Below, piece after piece: positions 33,101 through 64,000 of a DNA stretch of 64,000 bases. The notes under the pieces are model-generated. The model was given only the letters and a program-made list of their open reading frames with translations. It searched no databases and was not told the DNA's origin. How positions within the stretch are numbered: position 1 is the stretch's first letter; each line of letters opens with the position of its first letter. The stretch comes from Candidatus Aminicenantes bacterium (GTDB lineage Bacteria > Acidobacteriota > Aminicenantia > Aminicenantales > Saccharicenantaceae). Position numbers and translations under genes: made by a program. Location: assembly GCA_002877915.1 (NCBI GenBank), contig PNJE01000009.1, positions 3,061 to 67,060 on the forward strand, given 5' to 3'.

Positions 33101-33279
33101 TTCTTGGCCTAGTCCCCTTGCTCTTTGCTCAGGGACCAGGTTCAGAAATACAGCGCCCTCTGGCGGTAGTGGTAATTGGCGGACTGGTTACTTCGACCTT
33201 TCTGACCCTTCTGGTATTACCAGTATTTTATTATCGGTTAGCAGGCAACCAGTCGGCCTCAAAAAAGAAGCTTATTTAA
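30176..33279 (+). pseudogene. CusA/CzcA-family heavy-metal-efflux RND pump, interrupted by a 1-nt frameshift near 32617 (true pseudogene or assembly error)
   Basis: Track ORFs 30176..32692 (838 aa) and 32668..33279 (203 aa) are the N- and C-terminal parts of one ~1034-aa HME-RND protein. The TM4 motif GGLAISIGMVIDAAIIQVEN is CusA-like. Frame 1 reads ...QISREAS and then a nonsense tail. The other frame, open from 32578, reads RRIGIEVNISGRDLGRFVDEARQKI, which continues the family pattern. Confidence 0.85.
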
Positions 33280-42541: not shown

Positions 42542-43435
42542 ATGGACAGACGAGATTTTATCAGAAACTTATTTTTAGCCGGCTTGACAGCAAAAATAGC
42601 CCCTCAGCTTTTTTCTCAAGTATCTTCAACCGGGTGGCCGGAACTGGCTGTAGTCCAGGGAGATTCACCAGCTGCTATTACCAAAGAGGCTCTCGCCGCT
42701 CTGGGGGGAATGAAACGTTTTGTCAAGCGAGGTGATAAAGTTCTCATTAAACCAAACATTGGCTGGGACCGAACGCCAGAAATGGCTGCCTGCACCAATC
42801 CAGAAGTAGTCAAAGCCCTGGTAGAACTGGCCTTAGACGCAGGAGCCAAAGAAGTAATTGTCATAGACCACACGATCAATCAGCCAAAGCGTTGTTATGT
42901 TCGCTCTGGCATTCAAGAGGCCGCCAGCCAGGCTGGGGCTAAGGTTCTATTCGCTGAAGACCAGCGCTTGAAGAATGTAGCCTTGAAAGGAGAATGGCTT
43001 AAAGAATGGGAAGTCTATCAGGATTTTATGGAAGTCGACAAGTTGATTAATGTTCCAATAGCTAAGGTCCACAGCCTGTCAAAAGTAACCTTAGGGATGA
43101 AAAACTGGCTGGGAGCGGTGGGCGGAAGTCGCAACCAGCTCCATCAAAAAATAGATCAAGCGATGGTGGATTTAGCCGCCTTTTTCCGCCCGGCTTTAAC
43201 TGTTCTCGATGGTTATCGAATTCTCTTCCGAAATGGACCCCAGGGAGGGTTAATCTCTGATACTAAACTTATGAAAACTGTGGTAGCTGGAATCGACCCA
43301 GTGGCGGTCGATGCTTATGGGGCAACTTTCTTCGATTATAAACCCCAGGACCTTCTTTTTTTAAGACTGGCTCAAGAAAGAGGCCTGGGGAAAAATCAGC
43401 TGGAGAAAGTCAAAATTGAAAAGAGAAAAATCTAA
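42542..43435 (+). CDS. Tat-signal DUF362-domain protein
   Basis: 297 aa. Twin-arginine leader MDRRDFIRNLFLAGL. The body matches my recollection of the DUF362 pattern (VLIKPNIG..., INVPIAKVHS...). 20-nt overlap with the next gene. Confidence 0.75.
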   Translation: MDRRDFIRNLFLAGLTAKIAPQLFSQVSSTGWPELAVVQGDSPAAITKEALAALGGMKRFVKRGDKVLIKPNIGWDRTPEMAACTNPEVVKALVELALDAGAKEVIVIDHTINQPKRCYVRSGIQEAASQAGAKVLFAEDQRLKNVALKGEWLKEWEVYQDFMEVDKLINVPIAKVHSLSKVTLGMKNWLGAVGGSRNQLHQKIDQAMVDLAAFFRPALTVLDGYRILFRNGPQGGLISDTKLMKTVVAGIDPVAVDAYGATFFDYKPQDLLFLRLAQERGLGKNQLEKVKIEKRKI

Positions 43436-52363: not shown

Positions 52364-52475
52364 GTTCAAAATTATTAACTAAATTTGGGCTAATAAGTAC
52401 CTGGCGGCACTAAGTGCTAATTTATTGGCCTTTTTAAAAAATAATTCTGAAAATTATCTTTAATTCAGAAAAGAG

Positions 52476-52503
52476 ATTCTGACTTAATTCAGAATTATTT
52501 TTG
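52476..52503 (+). terminator. weak AT-rich hairpin plus T-run downstream of polA
   Basis: ATTCTGA-cttaat-TCAGAAT (7-bp stem) followed by TATTTTTG. A second hairpin built from the same unit lies at 52445-52470. Confidence 0.3.
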
Positions 52504-52549
52504 ATAAAGGCAAATTTTTAGGCTCTAATAAAAAAAGAAAAAGGCTTAA

Positions 52550-52578
52550 AATGAGCCACGCTTAAGGTTCGGCTCATT
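52550..52578 (-). terminator. candidate intrinsic terminator of the GNAT-like gene
   Basis: AATGAGCC / GGCTCATT form an 8-bp stem 13 nt past the stop. On the minus strand it is followed by TTAAGCCTTTTTCTTTTTTTATT. The 13-nt loop is large. Confidence 0.45.
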
Positions 52579-52590
52579 CATACTCATAAA

Positions 52591-53718
52591 TTACAGAAGC
52601 GGTTTCTGGTAAACCCGATAAATTTTATAAACCTGTCCTCCGACTCTTTCCATTTCGGCTCTCACTCGAACATTAGTTTCCATCTCGTGGTGAGTATCAA
52701 TGATTTCAAAACCAGCCTTCTGGGCCGAAGAAATCATGGCCATTCCCATTAGAGCATCCAATCCTTGACCGCGATATTCTTTTTTTATTGCCCCCAGCAG
52801 CAAATCAAGCTGCTTGGTCTTCTTGCTGGCCCGCAGGATGTGAAATATCCCAAAAGGAAAAAGACGACCGCGGGCCTTCTTAATTCCAGCCGTCAGATCA
52901 GGAATACCAACAATAAAAGCTACTACCTGCCCATCCTTTAAAACTCCCTTAACAAACCTGGGATCAAGGACAGGAAGATATTTTTTGGCCAGAGCATCCA
53001 TTTCTCTTTCATCCAAAGGAGCATAACCATAAATGTTGCTCTCGATGTAAGTTTCATTCATCAGGGAAAGTATTGGCCTGACCCAAGGTTTGATTTCTTT
53101 CTTATTTTTAAATTCTAGAAGCTGGAAGTTGCCTTTTTTCAGGATTCTCTCTGAAACCCGACAGTAAAGCTCAGGAATTTCTTTGGGGATTTCTATTTTA
53201 TAGACAAAATAATCATTATCTTTATAATAGCCCTCCTTTTCCACCATTTCCGGTAACCACTCGAAATTGTAGTAGGTAGCAATAGTGGCCCGGTGTTCAA
53301 AGCCCTTAATCAAGAATCCCTCCGGGTCTTGATCGGAAAATCCATAGGGGCCAATTATCCTGGTCATCCCCTTTTCTCTGGCCCACTGTTCCACCTGGCT
53401 GAGAAGAACATGGACCACCTCTTGATCTTTTATTGACTCCAGATATCCAAAGCGAGCCGTTTTTTCCTGACGTACCTCATTGTAGCGCCGATTTATTATC
53501 CCCATAATCCTGCCCACTACCTCTCCGTCCTTTTCGGCCAGAAGCATCAAGGTGTCAGAATATTCAAAGGCTTTGTTCTTTTTTGGATTAAAATAGGCCC
53601 ACTCATCCATATAAATAGGTGGGACCCAGTTTTCTCGCCCCCGGTGGAGCTTTTCGGGAAGATAAATAAAGACCTTTAATTGCTTTTTCGTTTTAACTTC
53701 TATCGTGCTTATGGCCAT
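52591..53718 (-). CDS. GNAT-like acyltransferase family protein (two-lobed, uncharacterised subfamily)
   Basis: 375 aa. The N-terminal pattern (F..LP..LHRGRENWVPPIYMDE...FNP..N.AFEYSD...LLAEKDGEVVGRI) and the C-terminal acetyl-CoA-like segment (YRGQGLDALM) recall a conserved uncharacterised GNAT-related family. Assigned from memory. Confidence 0.6.
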   Translation of the reverse strand: MAISTIEVKTKKQLKVFIYLPEKLHRGRENWVPPIYMDEWAYFNPKKNKAFEYSDTLMLLAEKDGEVVGRIMGIINRRYNEVRQEKTARFGYLESIKDQEVVHVLLSQVEQWAREKGMTRIIGPYGFSDQDPEGFLIKGFEHRATIATYYNFEWLPEMVEKEGYYKDNDYFVYKIEIPKEIPELYCRVSERILKKGNFQLLEFKNKKEIKPWVRPILSLMNETYIESNIYGYAPLDEREMDALAKKYLPVLDPRFVKGVLKDGQVVAFIVGIPDLTAGIKKARGRLFPFGIFHILRASKKTKQLDLLLGAIKKEYRGQGLDALMGMAMISSAQKAGFEIIDTHHEMETNVRVRAEMERVGGQVYKIYRVYQKPLL

Positions 53719-53806
53719 ATTTTCCTCTTTCCTTTTAATTTACCTGAATTTTAGCAGATTTAAAAAAACAATAAAATTAAAAATTTTGCAGTTCCTTGTC
53801 CCTTGA

Positions 53807-53860
53807 CCTGTGAAAAAATTGAGTTTTTCCTGTGAAAATGTCCGATAAATTATTGTGAAT
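53807..53860 (+). repeat. three phased TGTGAA direct repeats upstream of the hydrogenase promoter
   Basis: CCTGTGAAAA at 53807-53816 and again at 53829-53838 (identical 10-mers). ATTGTGAATT at 53852-53861. TGTGAA starts at 53809, 53831 and 53854, giving spacings of 22 and 23 nt. Confidence 0.5.
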
Positions 53861-53888
53861 TTTCTTTAAAAATTTCTAGGATAAATTC

Positions 53889-53918
53889 TTGACAATTACT
53901 TTTTTATTTTAATATACT
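53889..53918 (+). promoter_or_regulatory. candidate sigma70-type promoter of the hydrogenase operon
   Basis: TTGACA (53889-53894), 18-nt spacer, TATACT (53913-53918). The first ATG (53928) lies 10 nt after the -10 with no Shine-Dalgarno. Confidence 0.45.
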
Positions 53919-53927
53919 CACTTTCTC

Positions 53928-55358
53928 ATGAAAGTAGAGACTATAAGCCTCCTTACCATTTTTATTCCGATTTTGGGTTCATTGCTGGTTCCTCTGGCTG
54001 GAATTATCTCACCCCGACTCAGGTCTATCTGGTCGGTGCTCATCGGTGGATTGACGGCTGCTCTGCCACTGACCCTCATCCCTCAGGCACTGAAAGGCGG
54101 GGAGATAATTTTCAGTAAGAGCCTGGCTTTGGGATTGGATTTTATCTTAGTGATCGACCCGCTCTCCATTTTCATGTCCATCGTCTCCTCCTTCATTGGC
54201 TTCCTTATTATAATCTACTCGCTCGGCTACATGCATCATGATGAAAATCAGAATGAATACTACCTGATGGTCATCATGTTCATCGGCTCGATGATGGGGC
54301 TGGTGTACTCAGCTAATCTGGTGTTCATTTACCTGTTCTGGGAAATAATTGCCATTGCCTGCTGGCGGTTGATTGGTTTTTATCGTCAGAAAGATTATGT
54401 CCTCAAAGCTGATAAAGCTTTCTTGATGACCTTTGGTGGAGCGGTAGTTATGCTCCTTGGCTTTATTATTATTTACGGCCAGACTGGAACCTTCAATTTG
54501 GTCGCTATGCGGGGGGTGGCCATTCCTGGAAGCGCTGTACTTCTAATTCTATTCGGTATGTTTTCTAAATCAGCCACCGTGCCACTGCACACCTGGCTGC
54601 CCGACGCCGGTGTCGCCCCGACCACCGTGACCGCTTTACTGCACGCAGCTGTATTGGTAAAAATTGGAGTTTATGCTTATGCCCGCCTTTTTCTTTATAC
54701 TTTTAAAATTCCAGAAGGCTGGCAGCAAGCTATCATTCTGATGGCGGTTATTTCCAGCCTGGTAGCGGCTGGAGCCGCAACCGTAGAAAATGATTTTAAA
54801 AGAATTTTAGCATATTCCACTATAAGCCAGATTGGCTATATTTTCCTTGGCTTAAGCATAGCTAATCCAACGGCTATCTCCGGTGGTTTACTTTATATTC
54901 TGATGCACGGACTGGCTAAGGCCGGCCTATTCCTCTGCGCCGGTATAGTAATTCATTCAACTCACAAAAGGGACATCAGGGAAATGGGCGGATTAATTAA
55001 AACCATGCCCATTACCGCTATATCTTTTTTAATCTGTGCTTTTTCGGTAATCGGTCTTCCGCCACTGGGCGGCTTTTTCTCTAAATTGTTGGTGATTTTG
55101 GGAACTGTGCAGGCCAATCAGGTCTGGGTAGCAGCTCTGGCCCTATTCACTGCTGTGCTGACCATGTTTTACTTAATGCGGGTTTTCGCCCTGGTCTTCC
55201 TGGGCGACCTCAAGATTTCTGCTCCTGAAAAAACAACATCAATGGTGGGAGTGGTGAGCGTTCTGGCGGTACTTTCTATCCTGGCTGGCCTTTTTATTGC
55301 CTATCCCATGAAGCTCGTCCAGATGGCCACAACTCAGATCAGCTGGTGGTTAAAATGA
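53928..55358 (+). CDS. NuoN/M / MrpD-type antiporter-like membrane subunit 1
   Basis: 476 aa, ~14 TM helices. Proton-conducting-membrane-transporter core (SATVPLHTWLPDA, LLHAAVLVKIG, KRILAYSTISQIGY). Confidence 0.9.
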   Translation: MKVETISLLTIFIPILGSLLVPLAGIISPRLRSIWSVLIGGLTAALPLTLIPQALKGGEIIFSKSLALGLDFILVIDPLSIFMSIVSSFIGFLIIIYSLGYMHHDENQNEYYLMVIMFIGSMMGLVYSANLVFIYLFWEIIAIACWRLIGFYRQKDYVLKADKAFLMTFGGAVVMLLGFIIIYGQTGTFNLVAMRGVAIPGSAVLLILFGMFSKSATVPLHTWLPDAGVAPTTVTALLHAAVLVKIGVYAYARLFLYTFKIPEGWQQAIILMAVISSLVAAGAATVENDFKRILAYSTISQIGYIFLGLSIANPTAISGGLLYILMHGLAKAGLFLCAGIVIHSTHKRDIREMGGLIKTMPITAISFLICAFSVIGLPPLGGFFSKLLVILGTVQANQVWVAALALFTAVLTMFYLMRVFALVFLGDLKISAPEKTTSMVGVVSVLAVLSILAGLFIAYPMKLVQMATTQISWWLK

Positions 55359-57223
55359 CGGCAATGACTCTTTTATGGCCAATCATTTTTCCGGCGGCCG
55401 TGGCAATTTTATTTTTTCTAATTCCGACCCGGGTCAGGTTCGTCCGGGAAGTCCTGGCGGTTATAAGCTCAACTGTTCTCCTTTATTTAGGATTCGCCCT
55501 GTTCTCGCTTAAAGAGCTCTCCCTGACTACCAACTGGTTAGGAATGGGAATTAATTTTGATCTCCGACTATACCATTTTTCAGCCTTCATCTTATTAGCC
55601 CTATCGGGTTTTCTCTTTCTCATCTGCCTTTACTCTACAGTCAAAATGAAAGACCACCCGCGGGTGCGGGAATATTATGGCTATGTTTTTCTGGCTGCGG
55701 CTTTTTCCAACGGAGCAGTTCTATCAAATAATTTCATCCTGCTAATCTTCTTCTGGGAAGCTTTGCTGATAACCACTTACGCCCTGGTGACCATCGGCCT
55801 GAAGCCAACCTCCCATCGAACGGCAGTCAAATCGCTGATCATCGGCGGTTTCTGTGATTTTTCTATGATCCTGGGCATAGGTCTGCTGTGGGCTTCAACC
55901 GGCACTTTAACGATGAATCAGGTTCACGTAGAACCTCATGGGCTGGCGGTCGCTGCTTTTATCCTGATGATGATTGGCGCTATTGGCAAAGCCGGGGCGA
56001 TGCCCTTTCACACCTGGATTCCCGATGCGGCTCTCGATGCCCCGGTGACTTTCATGGCTTTTATGCCGGCTTCTTTTGAAAAGTTGTTAGGGATTTACCT
56101 CCTGGCCAGGATATCGCTGGATTTTTTCCAGCTAAAAGTTGGTAGCTCAATGGCAATGGTTCTAATGATTATAGGGGCAGCCACCATTGTCCTGGCCGTT
56201 TTTATGGCTTTGATTCAAAAAGATTTTAAAAAGCTTTTATCCTTTCACGCTATCAGTCAGGTCGGGTATATGATTCTGGGAATCGGGACAGCCATTCCAA
56301 TTGGAATTGCCGGTGGAATATTCCATATGATCAATCACGCCATGTACAAGACCGGACTCTTTTTGAGCTCCGGTTCAGTCGAACATCGCGCTGGCACTAC
56401 TGAACTCAAAAAACTTGGTGGCTTAGCCCGGGAAATGCCGTGGACCGCCTTCGGTTTTTCTGTTTGTGCCCTGGCTATTTCCGGGGTCTGGCCGCTTAAC
56501 GGCTTTGTTTCCAAAGAAATGGTGTTCCATGGAGCCCTGGAAACAGGTTATCCTATCTTTGCCATAGCCGCCTGGGTCGGAGCTATTTTCACTTTTGCTT
56601 CTTTTCTTAAAGCCGGGCATTCAGTTTTCTTTGGCCCCCGGTCAACTGAAATCCCCAAGACCAAAGAAAGCGAAGCTCCCATTGTTCTGCCAATTTTGAT
56701 CCTTGCGGCCCTGTGTATTACTTTTGGTGTTTATAACAAATTGCCCTTGCAGAATTTCATCCAGCCCATTCTGTCCGGGCAGGCAGAAGCTCAAGGGTCT
56801 TTAGATTTAACCACCCATGCTCTCAACCTTTTTAACCCAGTAGCCGGCGTTTCAATTCTTTGTTTAATTATTGCTCTGGGTATTCATTTTTACGGCTGGA
56901 ATCGGGGTGGTAAAAAAGCATATTTAGCCTCCGAGCCGATTCATCAGCTTATTGGATTAAAGCAGCTTTATAACTTATCTGAAGCCAGGTTTTTCGATTT
57001 GTATGAGCAGGGGGTTAAATTCTTGCAGTGGTTAGCCCGGATTCTTTTCCAGTTTATTGATCGCCCAATTGATTTTATCTACGAAAAGGTGATCACAGCC
57101 ATAGGGCGAAGCCTTACTGGCCTCTTGCAAAAAGCTCACAACGGTCAATATGCTAATTATTTGGCCTGGACTATCGGTGGCCTGCTGGTTGTGATCTGGA
57201 TTATACTTCAATTATTAAGATAG
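55355..57223 (+). CDS. NuoL / MrpA-type antiporter-like subunit with C-terminal amphipathic segment plus terminal TM helix
   Basis: ~622 aa from the ATG at 55355, which overlaps the upstream TGA (ATGA); the track offers GTG at 55346. Core motifs GAMPFHTWIPDA and KKLLSFHAISQVGY. A ~70-aa helical tail (HQLIGLKQLYNLSEARFFDLYEQGVKFLQWLARILFQFIDRPIDFIYEKVITAIGRSLTGLLQKA) is followed by a final TM helix. Confidence 0.88.
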   Translation: MTAMTLLWPIIFPAAVAILFFLIPTRVRFVREVLAVISSTVLLYLGFALFSLKELSLTTNWLGMGINFDLRLYHFSAFILLALSGFLFLICLYSTVKMKDHPRVREYYGYVFLAAAFSNGAVLSNNFILLIFFWEALLITTYALVTIGLKPTSHRTAVKSLIIGGFCDFSMILGIGLLWASTGTLTMNQVHVEPHGLAVAAFILMMIGAIGKAGAMPFHTWIPDAALDAPVTFMAFMPASFEKLLGIYLLARISLDFFQLKVGSSMAMVLMIIGAATIVLAVFMALIQKDFKKLLSFHAISQVGYMILGIGTAIPIGIAGGIFHMINHAMYKTGLFLSSGSVEHRAGTTELKKLGGLAREMPWTAFGFSVCALAISGVWPLNGFVSKEMVFHGALETGYPIFAIAAWVGAIFTFASFLKAGHSVFFGPRSTEIPKTKESEAPIVLPILILAALCITFGVYNKLPLQNFIQPILSGQAEAQGSLDLTTHALNLFNPVAGVSILCLIIALGIHFYGWNRGGKKAYLASEPIHQLIGLKQLYNLSEARFFDLYEQGVKFLQWLARILFQFIDRPIDFIYEKVITAIGRSLTGLLQKAHNGQYANYLAWTIGGLLVVIWIILQLLR

Positions 57224-57233
57224 AGGAGGAGCG

Positions 57234-58712
57234 GTGGTTTTCTCATTTATCGTGATACCTTTATTGGTAGCTGCTATTATGCCTCTTCTTGGCAAAATTT
57301 CGAAAAAATTAATCCCGGACGTTTTGACCAACGCCGCTCTGGCTTTTCTTTTGCTTAATTCCATTTTGCTAATCAAACCCATTTTTAATCAGGGCTCAAT
57401 TATTCAGAATATCAGCTGGATGGGTGAAAAAGTAAATCTGCAGATCGCTCTGGACAGCTTTAACTTGTTCATGCTCTTTACTATTTCCCTGGTCAGCCTG
57501 GCTATTTCCTTGTTCTCCATCGATTACTTAGAACATTATGGACACAAAGCTAATTTTTATGCCCTACTGCTGGTAATGATTGCCGGAATGAACGGGCTGG
57601 TTTTAGTTCCGGATCTTTTCTCGATTTATCTTTTCCTGGAAGTGGCCGCAGTAGCTTCTTATGCCCTGGTGGCTTTTGGCCTGGGATACGATGAGCTGGA
57701 AGCTTCCTTCAAGTATTTAATGTTATCAGCAGTAGCTTCAGCTTTTGCTCTTCTCAGCATCACTATCATTTTTGGTATGACCAGCAGCCTAAATTTCCAG
57801 GACGTCGCTCGGGGCCTTCAGGATCTCAGTGCTCGCTATGTAATTGGCGTTTGCCTGGCCTTCTTTATTATGGGATTCGGTCTGAAAGCGGCTCTGGTGC
57901 CATTCCATGCCTGGCTTCCTGATGCCCACCCCTCGGCTCCGGCTCCTATTTCGGCCATGCTGTCCGGCCTCTTAATTAAAGTTTCGGGTGTCTATGCTCT
58001 CTTCCGAATAATTTACAGCGTTATCGGAATGACCCCGGTCATGTCCCAGGTGTTGATGGCCCTGGGAACAATTTCCATGGTGGTAGCAGCTTTTCTGGCT
58101 CTTGGCCAAAAAGATATTAAAAGAATGCTGGCTTACTCTTCTATCAGCCAGGTTGGATATATTGTCCTCGGTCTGGCTATCGGAACCCCCCTGGGAATTG
58201 CCGGAGGCCTTTTCCATTTATTTAATCATGCAGTAGCTAAGGGACTTCTATTCTTGAATTCCGGCTCAATTCAGCATATAACCGGTACCAGAAACCTCGA
58301 GGAGCTTGGTGGTCTGGGCAAGCGCGTTCCTTTGACGGCCGGGACCAATCTGGTAGGCTCACTTTCGATCGCTGGGGTCCCACCTCTGGCTGGATTCTGG
58401 AGCAAGCTGGTAATTATTATGGCCCTAATCCAAGCTAAACAAATGGGATATGCCTTAATAGCTATTCTGGCCAGCATTTTAACTCTCTGGTACTATCTTT
58501 TAATCCAGCGCCGAGCCTTTTTCGGCCAAATGAATGAAAAATGGTCGCACATTAAAGAAGCTCCCTTCTGGATGTCAGCGGCCAATGTTATCCTGGCGTT
58601 GATCTGCATCCTGGTGGGAATATTTTTCACTCCAGTCTTTAAAACCTGGATTTCCCCGGCGGCTGAAGCTTTGGCCAGGGGTGTCCAGCAGGTGATGATG
58701 TGGGGAATATGA
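57234..58712 (+). CDS. NuoM/N / MrpD-type antiporter-like membrane subunit 3
   Basis: 492 aa. GTG start after GAGGAGGAG. Motifs ALVPFHAWLPDAH and KRMLAYSSISQVGY. Confidence 0.9.
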   Translation: MVFSFIVIPLLVAAIMPLLGKISKKLIPDVLTNAALAFLLLNSILLIKPIFNQGSIIQNISWMGEKVNLQIALDSFNLFMLFTISLVSLAISLFSIDYLEHYGHKANFYALLLVMIAGMNGLVLVPDLFSIYLFLEVAAVASYALVAFGLGYDELEASFKYLMLSAVASAFALLSITIIFGMTSSLNFQDVARGLQDLSARYVIGVCLAFFIMGFGLKAALVPFHAWLPDAHPSAPAPISAMLSGLLIKVSGVYALFRIIYSVIGMTPVMSQVLMALGTISMVVAAFLALGQKDIKRMLAYSSISQVGYIVLGLAIGTPLGIAGGLFHLFNHAVAKGLLFLNSGSIQHITGTRNLEELGGLGKRVPLTAGTNLVGSLSIAGVPPLAGFWSKLVIIMALIQAKQMGYALIAILASILTLWYYLLIQRRAFFGQMNEKWSHIKEAPFWMSAANVILALICILVGIFFTPVFKTWISPAAEALARGVQQVMMWGI

Positions 58713-58713
58713 G

Positions 58714-59202
58714 ATGATAATACAAATTATATTGCTTGTTGGCCTGGTCATCTTCGCCGGCCTGGCTATTCTGGCCAAAGACCTTCTAAAAGCAGCTCTT
58801 TCCTTAGCTGTGGCCAGCCTGTTCCTCGGAATAATTTTCTTCCGGCTCAGCGCTCCCTATGCCGGAGTATTCGAGATTTCAGTCGTGGCCGGACTAATCA
58901 CTGTTCTCTTTGCCCTGACCATTTCTCTGACCAGGAAAAATGATCAGGTGCAGGAAGCCCGGCTGGTAAAAATTGCTTTTCCTCTGTTTTTCATCCTGTT
59001 TTTAATTATAGATGGGCTGGTAATGAAATCTCTCCTGCTGAAAGTACCCGCCTTGCCGGCCGGCCCAGAAGCAGGAACTTTTGGTCAGGTTCTTTGGAAG
59101 CAGCGGACCTTTGATTTGATTGCCCAGATCGGCGTCATCCTGGCCGGCGTTTTGGCCGTGCTGGCTTTATTCCGAAAGAAGGAAGAAGATAAAGATGAGT
59201 AA
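58714..59202 (+). CDS. MbhD/MbhE-like (DUF4040, MrpB-related; NuoJ-equivalent) membrane subunit
   Basis: 162 aa with 4-5 TM helices. The segment RLSAPYAGVFEISVVAGLITVLFAL resembles the DUF4040 signature (APDVALTEAAVGAG..TVLF). Confidence 0.65.
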   Translation: MIIQIILLVGLVIFAGLAILAKDLLKAALSLAVASLFLGIIFFRLSAPYAGVFEISVVAGLITVLFALTISLTRKNDQVQEARLVKIAFPLFFILFLIIDGLVMKSLLLKVPALPAGPEAGTFGQVLWKQRTFDLIAQIGVILAGVLAVLALFRKKEEDKDE

Positions 59203-59503
59203 CCTCTGGTTTTTATACTTATTTTTCTCAGCCCTTCTGATATTTATAGGTATATATTGCCTCCTGACCATGCGCAATTTGATTAAGCTCTTTATTGCCA
59301 TTGAAATCATCAGCAAAGGAGTAAGCCTGGCCCTGGTGGCTACAGGAGCAGTTCAACATACCATTCTACTAGCTCAAAGCCTGGTGATTACCTACATTGT
59401 GGTCGAAGTTAGTTTAGTGGCTACGGCCCTAGCCCTGATAATAAATATTTATAAAAAGAATAAAAGCCTCGATGTTCGGCTACTTTCTAAATTGAAGGGA
59501 TGA
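59195..59503 (+). CDS. NuoK / MrpC / MbhG-like small membrane subunit
   Basis: 102 aa from the ATG at 59195 (MSNLWFLYLFF...). The track's 59120 start lies inside the upstream gene. Three TM helices with membrane glutamates (IAIEII, VVEVS). Confidence 0.85.
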   Translation: MSNLWFLYLFFSALLIFIGIYCLLTMRNLIKLFIAIEIISKGVSLALVATGAVQHTILLAQSLVITYIVVEVSLVATALALIINIYKKNKSLDVRLLSKLKG

Positions 59504-59838
59504 CCATGAGAGGATTAGAGTTTTTGCTTTCACCTCCGGTTGCCTTCTTTTTCTTCCTGGCCTTCGCCTTTTTGCTCTATGCCCTGGGGCGTAAGATGGC
59601 CCCTGGACTCAAACCCTCTAAGGGAAAATTGTCCACTTACGCTTGCGGCGAAGACATCCCGGGAGTCAAGGTTCAGTTTGGCTTCCGCTTGTTTTACACC
59701 TTTGCCTTGTTTTTCACCATTATGCATGTGGCGGCTTTAGTAATATCTACTGTTCCGATGGGAAAAATAGTATTTTTTGCTATAATTTATCTGGCCACGA
59801 TCTTTCTGGCGATCCTGGCCCTGATAACAAGGAGCTGA
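59500..59838 (+). CDS. NuoA-like small membrane subunit
   Basis: 112 aa with 3 TM helices. The loop motif YACGED corresponds to the NuoA Y(E)CG motif. ATGA overlap with the upstream gene. Confidence 0.65.
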   Translation: MTMRGLEFLLSPPVAFFFFLAFAFLLYALGRKMAPGLKPSKGKLSTYACGEDIPGVKVQFGFRLFYTFALFFTIMHVAALVISTVPMGKIVFFAIIYLATIFLAILALITRS

Positions 59839-59839
59839 G

Positions 59840-60259
59840 ATGCTGACAAAACTTACCCGCTGGTCACGGCTTAAATCACCCTGGATTCTCCATCTTAATA
59901 CCGGCGCCTGTAACGCTTGCGATATCGAGGTAGTGGCCGCCCTGACCCCTCGGTTTGATGTAGAACGCTTTGGCATCCTGCTTAAAGCTACCCCCCGTCA
60001 TGCTGACGTCATTATTTGCACCGGCCCGGCTACCCGGCAGATGAAAGATAGACTAATAAGAATTTATGAACAGACCCCGGAACCAAAATTTGTCATTGCT
60101 GCTGGAGCCTGCGCCATGTCCGGCTGCGTTTATCGGGGCGCTTATAATGTGATTGGTGGAATTGACCAACTGATTCCGGTGGATGTCTATGTTCCCGGCT
60201 GCCCGGTTAGGCCAGATGCGGTCATCGATGCGGTGGTTAAGCTTTTGAATAAACTTTGA
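59840..60259 (+). CDS. group-4 [NiFe]-hydrogenase small subunit (NuoB/MbhJ/EchC-like)
   Basis: 139 aa. Four Cys for one [4Fe-4S] cluster: GACNACDIE, GACAMSG, VPGCPVRP. Confidence 0.92.
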   Translation: MLTKLTRWSRLKSPWILHLNTGACNACDIEVVAALTPRFDVERFGILLKATPRHADVIICTGPATRQMKDRLIRIYEQTPEPKFVIAAGACAMSGCVYRGAYNVIGGIDQLIPVDVYVPGCPVRPDAVIDAVVKLLNKL

Positions 60260-60273
60260 TTTTTGAGGTTAAG

Positions 60274-60747
60274 ATGAATGACCAGATTTTAATAGAAAAA
60301 GCTAAAGAAGGACTTAAAGAAAAAATTTTAAATATTGCCAATCCGGCTCCCCGCCGTATTTTTTTAAAGGTGGCGGTGGACAACCTGCTCGAGACTATAA
60401 GCTGGCTTAAAAACGAACAGGGCTTCACCCACCTTTCGACCATTAGCGGCGTCGACCTGGGGCCGTCGTTTGAAATCCTTTACCATTTTGCTAATAATTT
60501 TTGTTCATTTACTATCAGGACTGAAATTCCCAGAGATAATCCTTCACTGCCGAGTATCTGCCAGCTAATTCCTGGAGCCATTCTTTATGAGCGTGAGCTT
60601 CAGGATATGTTAGGCCTTAACGTGCAAAATATTCCTGATCCGCGACCTCTTCTCCTGCCTGATGACTGGCCTGCAGGGAACTATCCCCTAAGAAAAGATT
60701 GGAAATTCGAACGTCCAGCTGAAGTCATTCCAGGAGGCAAAAAATGA
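60274..60747 (+). CDS. NuoC/MbhK-like subunit
   Basis: 157 aa from the ATG at 60274 (GAGG 6 nt upstream). The track's TTG at 60256 is also possible. 30-kDa-subunit pattern (ERELQDMLGL, LLLPDDWP...YPLRKD). Confidence 0.88.
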   Translation: MNDQILIEKAKEGLKEKILNIANPAPRRIFLKVAVDNLLETISWLKNEQGFTHLSTISGVDLGPSFEILYHFANNFCSFTIRTEIPRDNPSLPSICQLIPGAILYERELQDMLGLNVQNIPDPRPLLLPDDWPAGNYPLRKDWKFERPAEVIPGGKK

Positions 60748-61946
60748 ATTTTCAAATACCGATAGGCCCACAGCACCCAGCTTTAAAAGAACCTATTGGG
60801 CTGCGGATAACCGTCGATGGAGAGATTATCCGCGAGGCCGATCTCCGGCTGGGTTATAATCATCGAGGAATTGAAAAGCTGGCTGAAAGTAAAACCTGGA
60901 TTCAAAATATTTATCTCATGGAGCGCATCTGTGGCATCTGTTCTCATTCTCACACCACCTGTTATGTGCAGGGAGTTGAAAAGCTGATGGAGATTCAGGC
61001 GCCCAAACGCGGACTTTATATCCGAACCTTAGTGGCCGAACTGGAAAGGATTCATAGCCATCTGCTGTGGTTGGGGGTGGCCGGTCATGAAGCAGGCTTT
61101 GATAGTTTCTTCATGTATGTCTGGCGTGACCGCGAGATTGTCATGGATATTCTGGAAATTATTTCCGGTAATCGTGTCCATTATGCCATTAACACGATAG
61201 GGGGAGTGCGCCGTGACCTGGATGAGCTTCAGGTGAAAAATATTCTTGATTCTTTATCGGTTTTACGAAAGAGAAGTGAATATTATTTAAACCTTGGCAC
61301 CACCGAACCAAGCTTTGTGGCCAGGTTAGCTGGGGTTGGTTATCTTTCTAAGGAAGATGCCCTGGCTCTGTGCGCCGTCGGGCCTACCTTGAGGGCCTCC
61401 GGGGTACCCATGGATGTTAGAAAAGATGATCCTTATGCGGTTTATGACGAGGTCCCATTTGAAGTCTGCACCGCTGACACCGGCGACGTGTTAGGACGGA
61501 CGGTGGTGAGAATAAAAGAGCTTTTCCAGAGCTATAATATTATCGAATACCTGCTCAAAAATTTGCCCACTGGTCCGATTGCTGTCCGGGCCCCCAGGCG
61601 ACCAAAATCCAACGAAGTCGTTAGCCGCTATGAAGCACCCCGAGGAGAAAATATTCACTATATTAAAAGCAACGGCACAGAAAAACCGGAGAGATTAAAA
61701 GTTAGGGCTCCGACTCTCGGTAATTATGCGGCCACCATTAAAATGCTAAAAAATGGCTTTATCGCCGATGTCCCCTTGATTTTTGCGGCCATCGACCCCT
61801 GTATCTGCTGTGCCGAAAGAGCGGTGGCCATCGTTGACGCCAGAACCGGACAGGAAAAAATTGTTTCCACCAGCAGTTTGAAACAATTGAAACAGAATGT
61901 TTCTCCTAATAAAGAAAGAAAGAGGGAAGTGGTATGGCCACTGTAA
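60744..61946 (+). CDS. group-4 [NiFe]-hydrogenase large (catalytic) subunit (NuoD/MbhL/EchE-like)
   Basis: 400 aa. N-terminal ligand motif RICGICSHSH and C-terminal motif DPCICCAER. A 40-aa extension follows the Arg, consistent with endoproteolytic maturation. Confidence 0.93.
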   Translation: MNFQIPIGPQHPALKEPIGLRITVDGEIIREADLRLGYNHRGIEKLAESKTWIQNIYLMERICGICSHSHTTCYVQGVEKLMEIQAPKRGLYIRTLVAELERIHSHLLWLGVAGHEAGFDSFFMYVWRDREIVMDILEIISGNRVHYAINTIGGVRRDLDELQVKNILDSLSVLRKRSEYYLNLGTTEPSFVARLAGVGYLSKEDALALCAVGPTLRASGVPMDVRKDDPYAVYDEVPFEVCTADTGDVLGRTVVRIKELFQSYNIIEYLLKNLPTGPIAVRAPRRPKSNEVVSRYEAPRGENIHYIKSNGTEKPERLKVRAPTLGNYAATIKMLKNGFIADVPLIFAAIDPCICCAERAVAIVDARTGQEKIVSTSSLKQLKQNVSPNKERKREVVWPL

Positions 61947-62905
61947 GAACGCTGGTTTATTTATTTATCTATCCGGGGCTTCTCTTTATTTTCATTTATT
62001 CTACCTTCTGCGAGTGGTATGATCGTAAACTTTATGCCCGGCTTCAAAATCGAATGGGACCAACCCATACCGGACGTGGGGGAATTCTGCAGCCTATAGC
62101 TGACTTTTTCAAGCTAATGTCTAAGGAAGATATTGTTCCGGAACGCGCTGACAAGGGGATGTTTTCTGCTCTGCCGGCGTTTGGCCTGGCTATAGTTTCT
62201 ACCGCTATGCTTCTTATCCCGGTCTGGAATTACCAACTTAGCCAGCCTTCTTTAATCTCCTTCAATGGAGACCTGATAGTACTTCTCTACCTTTTGACCC
62301 TGCCCACTTTTATCTTTTTCTTGGCCGGCTGGTCATCTACCAATCTCTTTTCGACTATCGGGGCTACCAGAGTATTAACGATGCTGTTTGGCTATGAGGT
62401 CCCGCTTTTCTTAGCTGTGCTAAGCCCGGCGATCCTGGCCAATTCCTGGCGCCTGGCTGAGATTGCCGCTTTTTATCGCCAGCGGCCGTGGCTAATGCTG
62501 GTTAACCTTCTGGGGTTCGTCATCGCTTTAATCTCTGTCCAGGCAAAGCTCGAACGAACTCCTTTCGATATTCCTCACGCTGAAACTGAAATCGTAGGGG
62601 GCACCTTCACCGAATATTCTGGAAAAAAGTTAGCCCTGTTCCGGTTAATGCTGGATGTAGAACTGGTGGTTGCCTCGGCGCTACTGGCGACGGTTTTTCT
62701 TGGTGGTTTCCCCGGGGGTTTCTGGCTTGGGCTTCTTAATTTCATTATCAAAACCCTGGTGGTGATATTTATCCTTAGCCTAATCCGGGCCACCACCAGC
62801 AGAATAAGAGTAGATCAGGTAGTATCATTTTCCTGGAGATATCTGGCTCCCTTAGCCGTGCTCCAGCTTTTAATCGTCATCCTGGTTAAGGGGTTAATCT
62901 CATGA
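61934..62905 (+). CDS. NuoH/MbhM/HycD-like membrane subunit
   Basis: 323 aa with ~8 TM helices. Motifs DRKLYARLQNRMGP, ERTPFDIPHAETEIVGG. Confidence 0.92.
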   Translation: MATVRTLVYLFIYPGLLFIFIYSTFCEWYDRKLYARLQNRMGPTHTGRGGILQPIADFFKLMSKEDIVPERADKGMFSALPAFGLAIVSTAMLLIPVWNYQLSQPSLISFNGDLIVLLYLLTLPTFIFFLAGWSSTNLFSTIGATRVLTMLFGYEVPLFLAVLSPAILANSWRLAEIAAFYRQRPWLMLVNLLGFVIALISVQAKLERTPFDIPHAETEIVGGTFTEYSGKKLALFRLMLDVELVVASALLATVFLGGFPGGFWLGLLNFIIKTLVVIFILSLIRATTSRIRVDQVVSFSWRYLAPLAVLQLLIVILVKGLIS

Positions 62906-63312
62906 AGATTGGAGCTTTTATTCCCGAACTCCTCAGGCATTTAGCTAAAAAACCGGCCACAGTTGACTATCCTTTTAAAAAATTAGAAGTGCCCAAGGGA
63001 TTCCGTGGGTCTCCCTATTTAAAGCCGGAATTATGCATCGTTTGCCGCGCTTGCGAACGTGATTGCCCGGCTGAAGCCATCGAAATTACCTCTCTCAGCG
63101 AGGCGGAAAAGAAGTTTAGGATGATTATTCATAATGATCGTTGCGTTCATTGCGCCCAATGCGTTGATTCCTGCCCGACCGGAGCCATGTTGATAGATAC
63201 CAGATTTGAAATAGCCGATTATGACCGGCACAATCTGAAAATGCAATGGGATTACATCCGGGCAGTGGTCAAGCCAAAATCTGAGCCCAAAAGTGACCAG
63301 GCCAAATCTTAA
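62902..63312 (+). CDS. NuoI/MbhN-like 2x[4Fe-4S] ferredoxin subunit
   Basis: 136 aa. CIVCRACERDCP and CVHCAQCVDSCP. Confidence 0.92.
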   Translation: MKIGAFIPELLRHLAKKPATVDYPFKKLEVPKGFRGSPYLKPELCIVCRACERDCPAEAIEITSLSEAEKKFRMIIHNDRCVHCAQCVDSCPTGAMLIDTRFEIADYDRHNLKMQWDYIRAVVKPKSEPKSDQAKS

Positions 63313-63372
63313 AAATTTAATTTAAAGATATTAAATATAAAAAGAAAGGGAAGGGAAAAAGAAGAGCCGGCA

Positions 63373-63876
63373 ATGGCGGAAAATTGGCAGGCCTCGCTGA
63401 GTAAAGGACTGGCTGACCTGGAAAGGCTCGTGGTTCTGGGAACAGGTAATGCCTTGAAAGCAGATGATGCCGCCGGCCTGCTGGTAGTTAGCCTGCTCGA
63501 TCACCATCTTACCAGACGTCAAAAATCCAAAGTGAAAGTGCTCAGAGCTTATGAAATAATAGATGCCATTTTAAAAAAAATCAAAAACTTAAAACCATCA
63601 CACTTAATAATTGTGGACGCTATTAACCTTGGTAAAAAACCTGGCACCATCATCGCCACCAAAATTGAACCGGAGAAAAAAAGAAGGAAAAAAGCTGGAG
63701 GAGAGTTTTATTCTTTTTTAGACAAGCTTTCCACTGAAACCGCCTGCCAAATCTATTTTCTCGGAATTCAGCCAGAAACCTTAGACTTCGGGCATCCTAT
63801 TACTTCTTCAGTTAAGGAAGCCGCCAAAAAAATCGCTGACTTTATCTCTCGTCTGGCGAGCGGAAAAGTCAACTAA
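63373..63876 (+). CDS. HycI/HybD-family hydrogenase maturation endopeptidase-like protein
   Basis: 167 aa. LGTGNALKADDAAGLLV (GxGNxxxxDD), IIVDAINLGKKPGT, FLGIQPETLDFG. The usual metal-ligand His region is replaced by a basic insert (EPEKKRRKKAGGEFYSF). Confidence 0.8.
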   Translation: MAENWQASLSKGLADLERLVVLGTGNALKADDAAGLLVVSLLDHHLTRRQKSKVKVLRAYEIIDAILKKIKNLKPSHLIIVDAINLGKKPGTIIATKIEPEKKRRKKAGGEFYSFLDKLSTETACQIYFLGIQPETLDFGHPITSSVKEAAKKIADFISRLASGKVN

Positions 63877-63884
63877 TCCACCAT

Positions 63885-64000
63885 TTATATTTTCATTGGC
63901 ATTAAAATATAGAGATAATGGCCTTTTTCTTCTTCTTCTGGCCTGATTAAAACGGCGCTGTTTTCATCTTTAATCTCAAACCTGACCTTTTCTGATCCTA
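63885..64000 (-). CDS. 3' end of an unidentified minus-strand gene running off the window
   Basis: Hand translation gives ...GSEKVRFEIKDENSAVLIRPEEEEKGHYLYILMPMKI*. The frame is open to the window edge and the stop TAA is at 63887-63885. Family not recognised. Confidence 0.3.
   Translation of the reverse strand, partial: GSEKVRFEIKDENSAVLIRPEEEEKGHYLYILMPMKI

What the first reader, a model, noticed from the sequence alone, without database searches (positions are those of the whole stretch)
53928..63876. Membrane-bound [NiFe]-hydrogenase operon with a near-complete complex-I-type subunit set
Seen in sequence: twelve co-directional ORFs, mostly joined by ATGA or 8-13-nt overlaps. In order they are three NuoL/M/N-(MrpA/D)-type antiporter-like subunits (476, ~622, 492 aa), a DUF4040/MbhD-E-like subunit, NuoK-like, NuoA-like (YACGED), NuoB-like (GACNAC / GACAMSG / PGCP), NuoC-like, a NuoD-like catalytic subunit, NuoH-like, NuoI-like (two CxxCxxCxxxCP) and a HycI-like protease. 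The catalytic subunit keeps both NiFe ligand pairs (RICGICSHSH, DPCICCAER) and a 40-aa C-terminal tail. The ~622-aa subunit ends in a ~70-aa amphipathic stretch plus one last TM helix, which is the layout of the NuoL lateral helix. No NuoE/F/G, formate dehydrogenase, CODH or hyp genes are in the window. Established knowledge: group-4 hydrogenases are the closest relatives of complex I. As I recall, described Mbh has one antiporter-like subunit, Mbs/Mbx two, and Hyf three with a fused C-D large subunit. Inference: this locus pairs an intact hydrogen-evolving NiFe site with an A/H/J-like/K/L/M/N membrane arm in a non-nuo gene order (N-L-M-J-K-A-B-C-D-H-I). It would be a ferredoxin-driven, ion-pumping hydrogenase that structurally bridges Mbh/Hyf and complex I. 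Whether it belongs to an already named subgroup cannot be decided by eye.
Basis: partly seen in the sequence, partly recalled or inferred. Interest (0 to 1): 0.7.

Follow-up and report, generated by a model that had tools for sequence, protein, structure and literature searches.

The report
Complex-I-like membrane-bound [NiFe] hydrogenase operon
This is a real 12-gene operon from an uncultured Aminicenantes bacterium for a hydrogen-producing nickel-iron enzyme whose membrane part has the full subunit set of respiratory complex I, but the same operon occurs in many bacterial phyla, so it is a member of a known though untested family.

Summary
Window 53928-63876 (+) carries twelve tightly coupled genes. 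They encode three antiporter-like subunits (476, 622 and 492 aa), homologues of NuoJ/MbhD-E, NuoK, NuoA, NuoB, NuoC and NuoH, a 400-aa [NiFe] large subunit, a NuoI homologue and a HycI-type protease. Every assignment passed HMM or profile checks. The large subunit keeps all four Ni-Fe cysteines and a 41-aa cleavable tail.

The 622-aa subunit has the NuoL layout of TM15, a long amphipathic helix and TM16. In relatives this linker is 81-94 residues with three antiporter-like genes and 52-68 with two.

The locus is not rare. The source is a Ca. Saccharicenans/Aminicenantes MAG, and thousands of 75-90% identical proteins exist. The same gene order is found in 45 of 80 related GTDB loci from more than ten phyla. 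Published genome surveys file membrane-bound hydrogenases of several of those lineages under HydDB group 4g ([quoted passage not shown]).

It is not Mbh (no MrpEFG module), not Hyf (unfused C and D, separate A and J), not Ehr and not complex I (intact NiFe site).

Most likely function: ferredoxin-driven, ion-translocating H2 evolution. Donor, direction, ion and stoichiometry are inferred. Verdict: a new member of a known but biochemically untested kind, of moderate interest.

The parts
53889..53918 (+). Best sigma-70-like promoter match (TTGACA, 18 nt, TATACT; 11 of 12), ending 9 nt before the first ATG. A lead only.
   Evidence: The total number of promoter-like matches in the region is not above the shuffled expectation (20 found against 15.3 +/- 4.6).
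53928..55358 (+). Antiporter-like subunit 1 (476 aa). Its core is the most NuoL/NdhF/Nqo12-like, and it has no C-terminal lateral helix.
   Evidence: PF00361 4e-71 and PF00662 1e-13. PDB best hits are NdhF 3.7e-65 and Nqo12 2.4e-59. The TM5 Glu and the TM7, TM11 and TM12 Lys are invariant in 33 orthologues.
55355..57223 (+). Antiporter-like subunit 2 (622 aa from the ATG; 625 aa from the GTG at 55346). It has a 14-TM core followed by TM15, a long amphipathic lateral helix and TM16.
   Evidence: PF00361 6e-53. The NCBIfam NuoL models align end to end, 5-621 against 5-610 of 615. AF2 gives helices 495-517, 533-588 and 597-621. Foldseek gives full-length matches to NuoL/Nqo12/ND5/MrpA with TM-score about 0.70. 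The hydrophobic moment is 0.4-0.65 over residues 541-590.
57234..58712 (+). Antiporter-like subunit 3 (492 aa), closest to MbhH, MbsH and MrpD.
   Evidence: PF00361 3.5e-69 and PF00662 1e-6. PDB hits are MbhH 3.3e-76 and MbsH 1.8e-69. The charged residues are conserved.
58714..59202 (+). NuoJ-equivalent subunit (162 aa, 5 predicted TM helices). The N-terminal half resembles MbhD/MbsD.
   Evidence: PF00499 3e-9 and PF13244 1e-8. A profile of 24 orthologues hits MbsD 8e-13, MbhD 3.7e-12 and E. coli NuoJ 1.5e-8.
59195..59503 (+). NuoK/MbhG-like subunit (102 aa from the ATG).
   Evidence: PF00420 1.7e-18. NCBIfam NuoK scores 55.9 bits against a cut-off of 57.
59500..59838 (+). NuoA/ND3-like subunit (112 aa): TM1, a loop with the YACGED motif, then TM2 and TM3.
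   Evidence: PF00507 is marginal for the single sequence. A profile of 31 orthologues returns ND3/NuoA/NdhC chains for all 23 significant PDB hits (best 1e-6) over nearly its full length. 26 of 31 orthologues hit PF00507.
59840..60259 (+). Small subunit (NuoB/MbhJ-like, 139 aa) with four Cys for one [4Fe-4S] cluster.
   Evidence: PF01058 5e-31. NCBIfam NuoB scores 164 bits against a cut-off of 116.
60274..60747 (+). NuoC/MbhK-like subunit (157 aa from the ATG; 163 aa from the TTG at 60256), not fused to the large subunit.
   Evidence: PF00329 9e-30.
60744..61946 (+). [NiFe] large subunit (400 aa) with RICGICSHSH and DPCICCAER, followed by a 41-aa C-terminal extension.
   Evidence: PF00346 1e-69 and PF00374 2.6e-12. 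PDB hits are MbhL 1.1e-84, HycE 3.1e-82 and Nqo4 1.4e-60, and the tail aligns with the HycE tail. All four Cys are kept in all 79 related loci where both motif regions can be read.
61934..62905 (+). NuoH/MbhM-like membrane anchor (323 aa).
   Evidence: PF00146 1.8e-86.
62902..63312 (+). NuoI/MbhN-like ferredoxin-type subunit (136 aa) with two [4Fe-4S] motifs. It is the likely electron entry point.
   Evidence: Fer4 families.
63373..63876 (+). HycI-type maturation endopeptidase (167 aa).
   Evidence: PF01750 3.5e-10. A homologue is found in 58 of 80 related loci, at the operon end in nearly all loci with the window's gene order.

Best explanation

Shown by sequence:
- A hydrogenase module: small subunit B, subunit C, large subunit D with four Ni-Fe cysteines and a cleavable tail, and subunit I with two 4Fe-4S motifs.
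- A membrane anchor H.
- A complex-I-type membrane arm made of A, J and K plus three antiporter-like subunits. All three keep the canonical Glu/Lys chain.
- In the 622-aa antiporter-like subunit, a TM15, lateral helix and TM16 extension long enough to run along two neighbouring subunits.

Inferred mechanism:
1. Reduced ferredoxin from fermentation docks at subunit I.
2. Electrons pass through three [4Fe-4S] clusters to the NiFe site, where protons are reduced to H2.
3. The reaction is coupled, through H, the A loop and the J/K channel, to outward translocation of H+ (or H+ and Na+) by the antiporter-like subunits.
4. The resulting gradient feeds ATP synthesis.
5. The HycI-like protease removes the 41-aa tail after R359 once the hyp machinery, encoded elsewhere, has inserted the metal centre.

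The driving force of ferredoxin-to-proton transfer is small. My estimate is about 7-17 kJ per H2 at 1 bar H2 and about 30-40 kJ at 10 Pa H2, against about 14.5 kJ per ion at 150 mV. The enzyme therefore cannot pump four ions per two electrons as complex I does. Either the stoichiometry is about two or fewer, or some modules exchange ions.
For: - Gene content and tight coupling.
- Family assignments.
- The large subunit is nearest to MbhL and HycE among solved structures, with conserved L1 and L2 motifs and a HycE-like tail.
- All four Cys are kept in all 79 related loci where both motif regions can be read. A protease homologue is found in 58 of the 80 loci, many of the rest being contigs that end early.
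- The charged-residue chain is invariant or nearly invariant in all three antiporter-like paralogues across 33 loci.
- Lateral-helix layout: AF2 secondary structure, full-length Foldseek matches to NuoL-type chains and amphipathicity.
- The TM15-TM16 linker length tracks the number of antiporter-like genes. It is 81-94 residues with three (n=39) and 52-68 with two (n=8), with no overlap.
- No extra donor module (FdhF, HycB/HyfA, CooS/F, NuoEFG) is in the operon or the window. This is the composition expected for direct ferredoxin input, as in Mbh.
- Conservation of the identical operon in more than ten phyla argues for a functional unit.
Against: - No member of this clade has been purified or assayed as far as I could find. 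Donor, direction, ion and stoichiometry are inference.
- No hyp genes are in the window.
- The AF2 confidence for the lateral helix itself is low (pLDDT below 50 for residues 564-606). The subunit arrangement was not modelled.
- The linker-length comparison rests on related sequences that are not independent.
- Three pump modules are hard to reconcile with the small free energy of the ferredoxin-to-H+ reaction. This leaves room for a reverse or ion-exchange role.
Confidence: 0.7

Rival explanations
1. The complex runs mainly in reverse. It uses the ion gradient, through several pump modules, to drive H2-dependent reduction of low-potential ferredoxin. Eha/Ehb and Ech do this in methanogens.
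For: Three antiporter-like modules give a high ion-to-electron ratio. That ratio is thermodynamically awkward for H2 evolution but useful for uphill ferredoxin reduction (my calculation, inference). Related loci occur in Methanoregula and Bathyarchaeia. Group 4 enzymes are described as reversible in the reviews read.
Against: Aminicenantes MAGs are described as fermenters that carry H2-evolving hydrogenases. The operon is found mostly in fermentative lineages such as Omnitrophota, Elusimicrobiota and Bacillota, where published reconstructions infer H2 evolution. Nothing in the window points to autotrophy.
Confidence: 0.12
2. It is a Hyf-like formate hydrogenlyase, or another donor-coupled complex, whose dehydrogenase module is encoded elsewhere in the genome.
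For: It has three antiporter-like subunits, as Hyf does. NCBIfam models for hydrogenase-4 subunits D and B give strong but sub-threshold hits. The next large-subunit relatives, at about 50% identity, include fused C-D forms.
Against: There is no HyfA/HycB-type connecting ferredoxin, no FdhF and no FocA in the operon, the window or the 8 kb downstream. C and D are unfused and A and J are separate. All NCBIfam Hyf equivalog cut-offs are missed. In 45 loci from many phyla the operon ends at the protease with no donor genes.
Confidence: 0.08
3. It is not a hydrogenase but a ferredoxin:quinone oxidoreductase (11-subunit complex I) or an Ehr-type complex that only resembles one.
For: NCBI pipelines name several subunits NADH-quinone oxidoreductase B, D and L. 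The NCBIfam NuoD model scores 347 bits, just under its cut-off of 360.
Against: Both Ni-Fe cysteine pairs, the C-terminal extension and a dedicated HycI-type protease are present and conserved in relatives. Among solved structures MbhL and HycE score far above any NuoD. Ehr is defined by the loss of these ligands.
Confidence: 0.02

Closest known systems
HydDB group 4g [NiFe] hydrogenases, reported as 'Mbh-Mrp type' in Omnitrophota, Cloacimonadota, Elusimicrobiota/Endomicrobium and Bathyarchaeota
   Same: Related loci with the window's gene order, or close variants of it, come from Omnitrophota, Elusimicrobiota/Endomicrobia and Bathyarchaeia, at 50-75% large-subunit identity. Papers on these lineages class their membrane-bound hydrogenases as group 4g: uncharacterised and presumably ferredoxin-dependent and H2-evolving.
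   Different: Group 4g is a loose, polyphyletic bin, and HydDB itself was not run on this sequence. Some 4g clades have a different, Ech2-like organisation. The papers read call these enzymes 'Mrp-linked'. [quoted passage not shown]
Pyrococcus furiosus MBH (group 4d; PDB 6CFW)
   Same: It is the best solved-structure match for the large subunit (1e-84), for antiporter-like subunit 3 (MbhH, 3e-76) and for the J N-terminal half (MbhD). It takes electrons directly from ferredoxin with no extra donor module.
   Different: MBH has 14 subunits, one antiporter-like subunit, a short lateral helix and a sodium module of MrpE/F/G-like MbhA-C plus MbhF. The present operon has three antiporter-like subunits, a fused NuoJ-like subunit, a full NuoA-like subunit and no MrpEFG homologues.
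E. coli hydrogenase-4 (Hyf, FHL-2) and FHL-1 (Hyc; PDB 7Z0S)
   Same: [quoted passage not shown] HycE is the second-best structural relative, and its cleaved tail aligns with the tail here. Both use a HycI-type protease.
   Different: Hyc and Hyf have a fused C-D large subunit, an extra ferredoxin subunit and formate dehydrogenase as donor. In HycC the ND3-like element is fused to the antiporter-like subunit. Here C and D are separate, A and J are separate genes, and no donor module is present. The NCBIfam Hyf cut-offs are not met.
11-subunit complex I / NDH-1 / Fpo core (NuoABCDHIJKLMN)
   Same: [quoted passage not shown] A relative at 49% identity (P0245, locus L087) even has the exact nuo gene order with both NiFe motifs.
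   Different: The D subunit keeps the Ni-Fe ligands and a cleavable tail, and a maturation protease is encoded, so the acceptor is H+ and not quinone. The gene order here is L-L-L-J-K-A-B-C-D-H-I. The helix-bearing subunit is not the one with the most NuoL-like core.
Asgard archaeal groups 4j-4q ('complexes bridging hydrogenases and complex I', preprint 10.1101/2024.07.04.601786)
   Same: The concept is the same: NiFe-type large subunits in complexes predicted to have a complex-I-like architecture.
   Different: [quoted passage not shown] The relationship of the large subunits was not tested.
Ehr (energy-converting hydrogenase-related) complexes
   Same: They are complex-I/hydrogenase relatives with Mrp-type antiporter-like subunits and were proposed as a missing link.
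   Different: Ehr lacks the Ni-Fe ligands by definition. They are intact here.

Membership tests
[quoted passage not shown] | The large subunit has the N-terminal RxCGxCxxxH and C-terminal DPCxxCxx(H/R) Ni-Fe ligand motifs. | tested here: met
   RICGICSHSH and DPCICCAER are in the 400-aa protein. PF00374 and PF00346 both hit. The alignment to MbhL and HycE covers both motifs.
[quoted passage not shown] | A NuoB-like small subunit with one [4Fe-4S] cluster, a NuoH-like anchor, a 2x[4Fe-4S] subunit, and at least one antiporter-like subunit encoded with the large subunit. | tested here: met
[quoted passage not shown] | Hydrogenase activity (H2 evolution or uptake). | not testable with these tools
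HydDB group 4g | Assignment by the HydDB classifier or its sequence-similarity network on the large subunit. | not testable with these tools
   HydDB is not available here. The indirect evidence is that lineages carrying related loci have had their membrane-bound hydrogenases classed as 4g in the literature.
Mbh / group 4d (ferredoxin-coupled, Mrp-linked) | A sodium module of MrpE/F/G-like subunits (MbhA-C) and MbhF encoded with the hydrogenase. | tested here: not met
   All twelve ORFs are accounted for by other families, and none matches MrpE, F, G or B.
Mbh / group 4d (ferredoxin-coupled, Mrp-linked) | A single antiporter-like subunit (MbhH) with a short lateral helix on MbhI. | tested here: not met
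   There are three PF00361 subunits, and the lateral-helix extension sits on the 622-aa subunit. The A-subunit profile hits MbhI only weakly (E = 0.07) and only over its N-terminal part.
Hyf / Hyc formate hydrogenlyase (group 4a) | A fused NuoC-NuoD large subunit. | tested here: not met
   C (157-163 aa) and D (400 aa) are separate genes.
Hyf / Hyc formate hydrogenlyase (group 4a) | A HycB/HyfA ferredoxin subunit and a formate dehydrogenase partner. | tested here: not met
   Both are absent from the operon, the window and the 8 kb downstream. The rest of the genome was not seen.
Hyf / Hyc formate hydrogenlyase (group 4a) | NCBIfam equivalog scores for HyfB and HyfD. | tested here: not met
   The best scores are 315.6 bits against a cut-off of 430 (HyfD model) and 285.3 against 667 (HyfB model).
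Respiratory complex I, 11-subunit form | The subunit set A, B, C, D, H, I, J, K, L, M, N. | tested here: met
   A homologue of each is present. One-to-one orthology of the three antiporter-like subunits to L, M and N is not supported.
Respiratory complex I, 11-subunit form | A NuoD without Ni-Fe ligands that forms a quinone site, with no maturation protease. | tested here: not met
   All four Cys, the C-terminal tail and a HycI gene are present.
Respiratory complex I, 11-subunit form | A NuoL-type subunit with TM15, a long amphipathic helix HL and TM16 spanning the antiporter-like subunits. | tested here: inconclusive
   The layout, length, amphipathicity and fold match are met. Linker length scales with the number of antiporter-like genes. 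The helix itself is modelled at low confidence, and its position in the assembly was not modelled.
Ehr complexes | A large-subunit homologue lacking the Ni-Fe binding cysteines. | tested here: not met
   The cysteines are present.

The most novel reading that the evidence does not exclude
This widespread bacterial clade may be the extant hydrogenase that comes closest to the proposed proton-reducing ancestor of complex I. It would be a true [NiFe] enzyme assembled in the complex I arrangement, with separate NuoA-, NuoJ- and NuoK-type subunits, three functional pump modules and a full-length lateral helix. Natural two-module and three-module variants, and relatives in exact nuo gene order, would form a graded series. 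If so, it contradicts the older conclusion that NuoA and NuoJ are absent from all hydrogenases (PMC3144371). It would also offer a tractable system for asking what extra antiporter modules do when the redox span is only enough for one or two ions.
Probability: 0.35. Interest if true: 0.65.

Novelty: new member of a known kind. Interest (0 to 1): 0.42.

Why it matters
The locus itself is one more copy of an operon already present in thousands of public contigs and loosely filed under group 4g. Its discovery value is therefore modest.

The family has value because nobody appears to have characterised it. It combines an intact H2-forming site with the complete 11-subunit core of complex I. It also exists in nature in versions with two and with three antiporter-like modules, whose lateral-helix linker differs by about 29 residues.

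Two open questions in bioenergetics become approachable:
- How the complex I membrane arm was assembled from hydrogenase and Mrp parts.
- How many ions multiple antiporter-like modules can move when the driving reaction yields only about 10-40 kJ per two electrons.

For the ecology of Aminicenantes and other fermenters in sediments and digesters, the operon points to energy conservation from ferredoxin-dependent H2 release.

Tried and rejected
- Two look-ups of upstream window proteins in the contig index found nothing. One of the two genes turned out to be a split acrB. The upstream ORFs were scanned with Pfam instead.
- phmmer of the C-terminal 153 residues of the 622-aa subunit against the long antiporter-like subunits of the two-module and archaeal variants found no match, even at E <= 10. 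Homology of the lateral-helix regions across variants could therefore not be shown. Only their layout and length could be compared.
- An Rfam scan of window 52300-64000 found no RNA family.
- The promoter and terminator scans are at background level apart from one strong -35/-10 match upstream of the first gene.
- Single-sequence searches for the NuoA-like and NuoJ-like proteins were marginal. Profiles built from orthologues were needed.
- Reading as a complex I or Ehr complex: rejected because of the NiFe ligands, the tail and the protease.
- Reading as Mbh proper: rejected because there is no MrpEFG module and there are three antiporter-like subunits.
- Reading as Hyf: rejected because C and D are unfused, A and J are separate, no HyfA or FdhF is present and the scores are sub-threshold.
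- A multimer model was not attempted. The structure tool takes single chains of at most 1200 residues and only accepts window sequences or hits from the homology search, so paired alignments could not be supplied.
- The cap on papers was reached before the T. kivui Ech2 paper could be read.

Full report
**1. The observation**

Window 53928-63876 holds twelve co-directional ORFs on the + strand. Neighbouring genes overlap by 4, 8 or 13 nt or are separated by 1-10 nt. Only the last gene follows a 60-nt gap. The identical sequence occurs on public contigs of a Candidatus Saccharicenans/Aminicenantes MAG (GCA_049969695.1, a 279-kb contig, and GCA_011055285.1). Independent gene calls there give the same twelve genes. 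They place ATG starts at 55355 (622 aa), 59195 (102 aa) and 60274 (157 aa).

There are three PF00361 antiporter-like subunits. A 162-aa protein passes both the NuoJ (PF00499) and MbhD (PF13244) thresholds. NuoK, NuoB, NuoC and NuoH homologues are present, and a NuoA match is marginal. The large subunit hits PF00346 and PF00374. A two-cluster ferredoxin-type subunit and a HycI-family protease complete the set. All quoted motifs are present in the translations. The tail after the DPCICCAER motif is 41 residues.

**2. The two weakest assignments**

I tested the NuoA-like and NuoJ-like assignments with profiles built from orthologues in related loci.

- The NuoA-like profile (31 sequences) returned ND3/NuoA/NdhC chains for all 23 significant matches among solved structures. 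The best E-value is 1e-6 and the match covers nearly the full length. MbhI was matched only weakly, over its N-terminal part. 26 of 31 orthologues hit PF00507 individually.
- The NuoJ-like profile hit MbsD (8e-13), MbhD (3.7e-12) and E. coli NuoJ (1.5e-8). With five predicted TM helices, the protein is a NuoJ equivalent of the fused MbhD-MbhE type.

**3. The catalytic core**

Among solved structures the large subunit is closest to P. furiosus MbhL (1.1e-84) and E. coli HycE (3.1e-82). These score well ahead of any NuoD (1.4e-60). Its C-terminal extension aligns with the cleaved tail of HycE. Both cysteine pairs are intact. All 79 relatives in which both motif regions can be read also keep them. 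A HycI-type gene is found in 58 of the 80 related loci, at the operon end in nearly all loci with the window's gene order. This is a hydrogenase. It is not a quinone reductase or an Ehr complex.

**4. The membrane arm**

All three antiporter-like subunits keep the TM5 Glu and the TM7, TM11 and TM12 Lys, invariant or nearly so across 33 loci from different phyla. All three therefore look like working ion-translocation modules.

The labels N-L-M are not supported:

- The 476-aa subunit has the most NuoL/NdhF/Nqo12-like core but no C-terminal extension.
- The 492-aa subunit is closest to MbhH, MbsH and MrpD.
- The 622-aa subunit is the most divergent and has no significant PF00662 domain.

The 622-aa subunit aligns end to end with the NCBIfam NuoL models. 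An AlphaFold2 model (pLDDT 70.9, pTM 0.74) gives a 14-helix core and then helices 495-517, 533-588 and 597-621. Foldseek returns full-length matches to NuoL, Nqo12, ND5 and MrpA with TM-scores near 0.70. The 541-590 stretch has a high hydrophobic moment and lies between two hydrophobic segments. The model confidence for the long helix is low, as expected for a helix that needs partner subunits.

A comparative test supports its role. In relatives with three antiporter-like genes the TM15-TM16 linker is 81-94 residues (median 88, n=39). In relatives with two it is 52-68 (median 59, n=8). The ranges do not overlap. The difference of 29 residues is about 44 angstroms as a helix, roughly the width of one subunit. 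This matches the published rule that the lateral helix scales with the number of antiporter-like subunits. The sequences are related, so this is not an independent-sample statistic.

**5. Surroundings**

The rest of the window is housekeeping and lies near the replication origin. It includes tRNA synthetases, parA/parB, gidA, mnmE, yidC, fatty-acid synthesis genes and polA. dnaN and dnaA lie just beyond the window end. There are no large hyp genes, no nuoEFG, no formate dehydrogenase and no CODH. The best promoter-like match sits 9 nt upstream of the first ATG. No Rfam family matches.

**6. Distribution**

The large subunit has thousands of 75-90% identical relatives in Aminicenantes contigs. 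Outside that clade identity drops to about 50-55%. Even so, a scan of GTDB species representatives found the same order in 45 of 80 loci: three antiporter-like genes, then J, K, A, B, C, D, H, I and the protease. These loci come from Aminicenantes, UBP2, Omnitrophota, Bacillota, Phycisphaerae, Spirochaetota, Elusimicrobiota including Endomicrobia, Coriobacteriia and others. Most of the remaining loci are contigs that end early.

Variants exist:

- A J-K-L-L-A-B-C-D-H-I form with two antiporter-like genes in most cases. It is found in Anaerolineae, including the cultured Longilinea arvoryzae and Leptolinea tardivitalis, and in some methanogens (9 loci).
- An archaeal A-B-C-D-H-I-J-K-L form in most of the Bathyarchaeia-type loci (5 loci).
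- A 49%-identical fused C-D form in exact nuo order that keeps both NiFe motifs.

**7. What is already known**

[quoted passage not shown] A 2026 survey finds it polyphyletic. Genome papers on Omnitrophota and Cloacimonadota, on Endomicrobium and on Bathyarchaeota classify their membrane-bound hydrogenases as group 4g. A study of groundwater Elusimicrobia calls them 'Mbh-Mrp type'. All infer ferredoxin-dependent H2 evolution. Aminicenantes group 4 hydrogenases are mentioned in passing.

None of the papers I could read describes the complex-I-type composition explicitly. A 2011 analysis stated that NuoA and NuoJ are absent from all hydrogenases. A 2024 preprint on Asgard archaea proposes new groups 4j-4q as bridges between hydrogenases and complex I, with shorter membrane arms.

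It is still biochemically and structurally uncharacterised as far as I could find.

**8. Mechanism**

Shown: composition, motifs, conservation and lateral-helix layout.

Inferred: reduced ferredoxin donates to the two-cluster subunit. Electrons reach the NiFe site through the small-subunit cluster. Proton reduction is coupled through H, A, J and K to ion export by the antiporter-like modules. The protease trims the large subunit after metal insertion by hyp proteins encoded elsewhere.

My own estimate of the energetics uses E(H+/H2) of -414 mV at 1 bar and about -296 mV at 10 Pa, ferredoxin at -450 to -500 mV, and 14.5 kJ per ion at 150 mV. This allows roughly 0.5-1 ion per H2 at 1 bar and 2-2.7 at 10 Pa. 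It never allows the four of complex I. Either the modules do not each pump one ion outward per turnover, or some exchange Na+ for H+, or the enzyme is also used in reverse. This is the same unresolved puzzle as for Hyf.

**9. Verdict**

The locus is a new member of a known, widespread but experimentally untested kind of group 4 hydrogenase. It is neither Mbh, Hyf, Ehr nor complex I by the features tested. Interest is moderate. It attaches to the family, and to the natural series of two- and three-module variants, rather than to this particular locus.

Noticed in passing
window 30176-33279 (+): An AcrB-type RND transporter is split into two overlapping ORFs. The first is 838 aa and matches PF00873 positions 2-810. 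The second is 203 aa and matches positions 831-1019. This is a frameshift, so either a pseudogene or an assembly error. The 838-aa product is not on record as a called gene.
   Followed up: partly
window 53889-53927 (+): The strongest promoter-like match (TTGACA, 18 nt, TATACT) ends only 9 nt before the ATG of the first operon gene. No Shine-Dalgarno sequence lies between them. The first gene may be translated from a leaderless or near-leaderless mRNA.
   Followed up: no
window 42542-45008 (+): A DUF362 protein (297 aa) is followed by a 530-aa protein with several 4Fe-4S motifs (Fer4_5). It is a possible iron-sulfur redox pair about 9 kb upstream of the hydrogenase operon. No link to the operon was established.
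   Followed up: no
L041 (Dehalococcoidales), L051 and L081 (Bathyarchaeia): In these loci, relatives of the same large-subunit clade sit in B-C-D-I clusters, with a HycI-type gene found in two of the three. No NuoH-like or antiporter-like genes were detected. They may be soluble or differently anchored offshoots of the membrane-bound family.
   Followed up: no
window 59500-59838; alignment A3: In the NuoA-like subunit, the conserved Asp of the ND3/NuoA TM2 motif (FDVE) aligns with a His in most bacterial members (TIMHV). It is kept as Asp in the archaeal members. This is a lineage-specific change in a position of the complex I E-channel.
   Followed up: partly
L087 (metagenome contig, ENA ERZ27227321): A relative with a fused C-D large subunit (P0245, 49% identity) keeps both NiFe motifs and a 33-aa tail. 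It lies in the exact complex I gene order A-B-CD-H-I-J-K-L-M-N, and its 649-aa L subunit carries PF00662. Among the loci seen, this is the hydrogenase cluster with the most nuo-like gene order.
   Followed up: partly
L042 (Margulisiibacteriota): A single 1010-aa ORF stands where the first two antiporter-like genes lie in the window's operon, which suggests a gene fusion. Several other loci (L028, L039, L060) have one antiporter-like gene split in two, which suggests frameshifts or assembly errors.
   Followed up: no
L048 (Bacillota MAG): The N-terminal Ni-Fe motif reads CGICSHAQ. The usually conserved His after the cysteine pair is Gln, while all four cysteines are kept.
   Followed up: no
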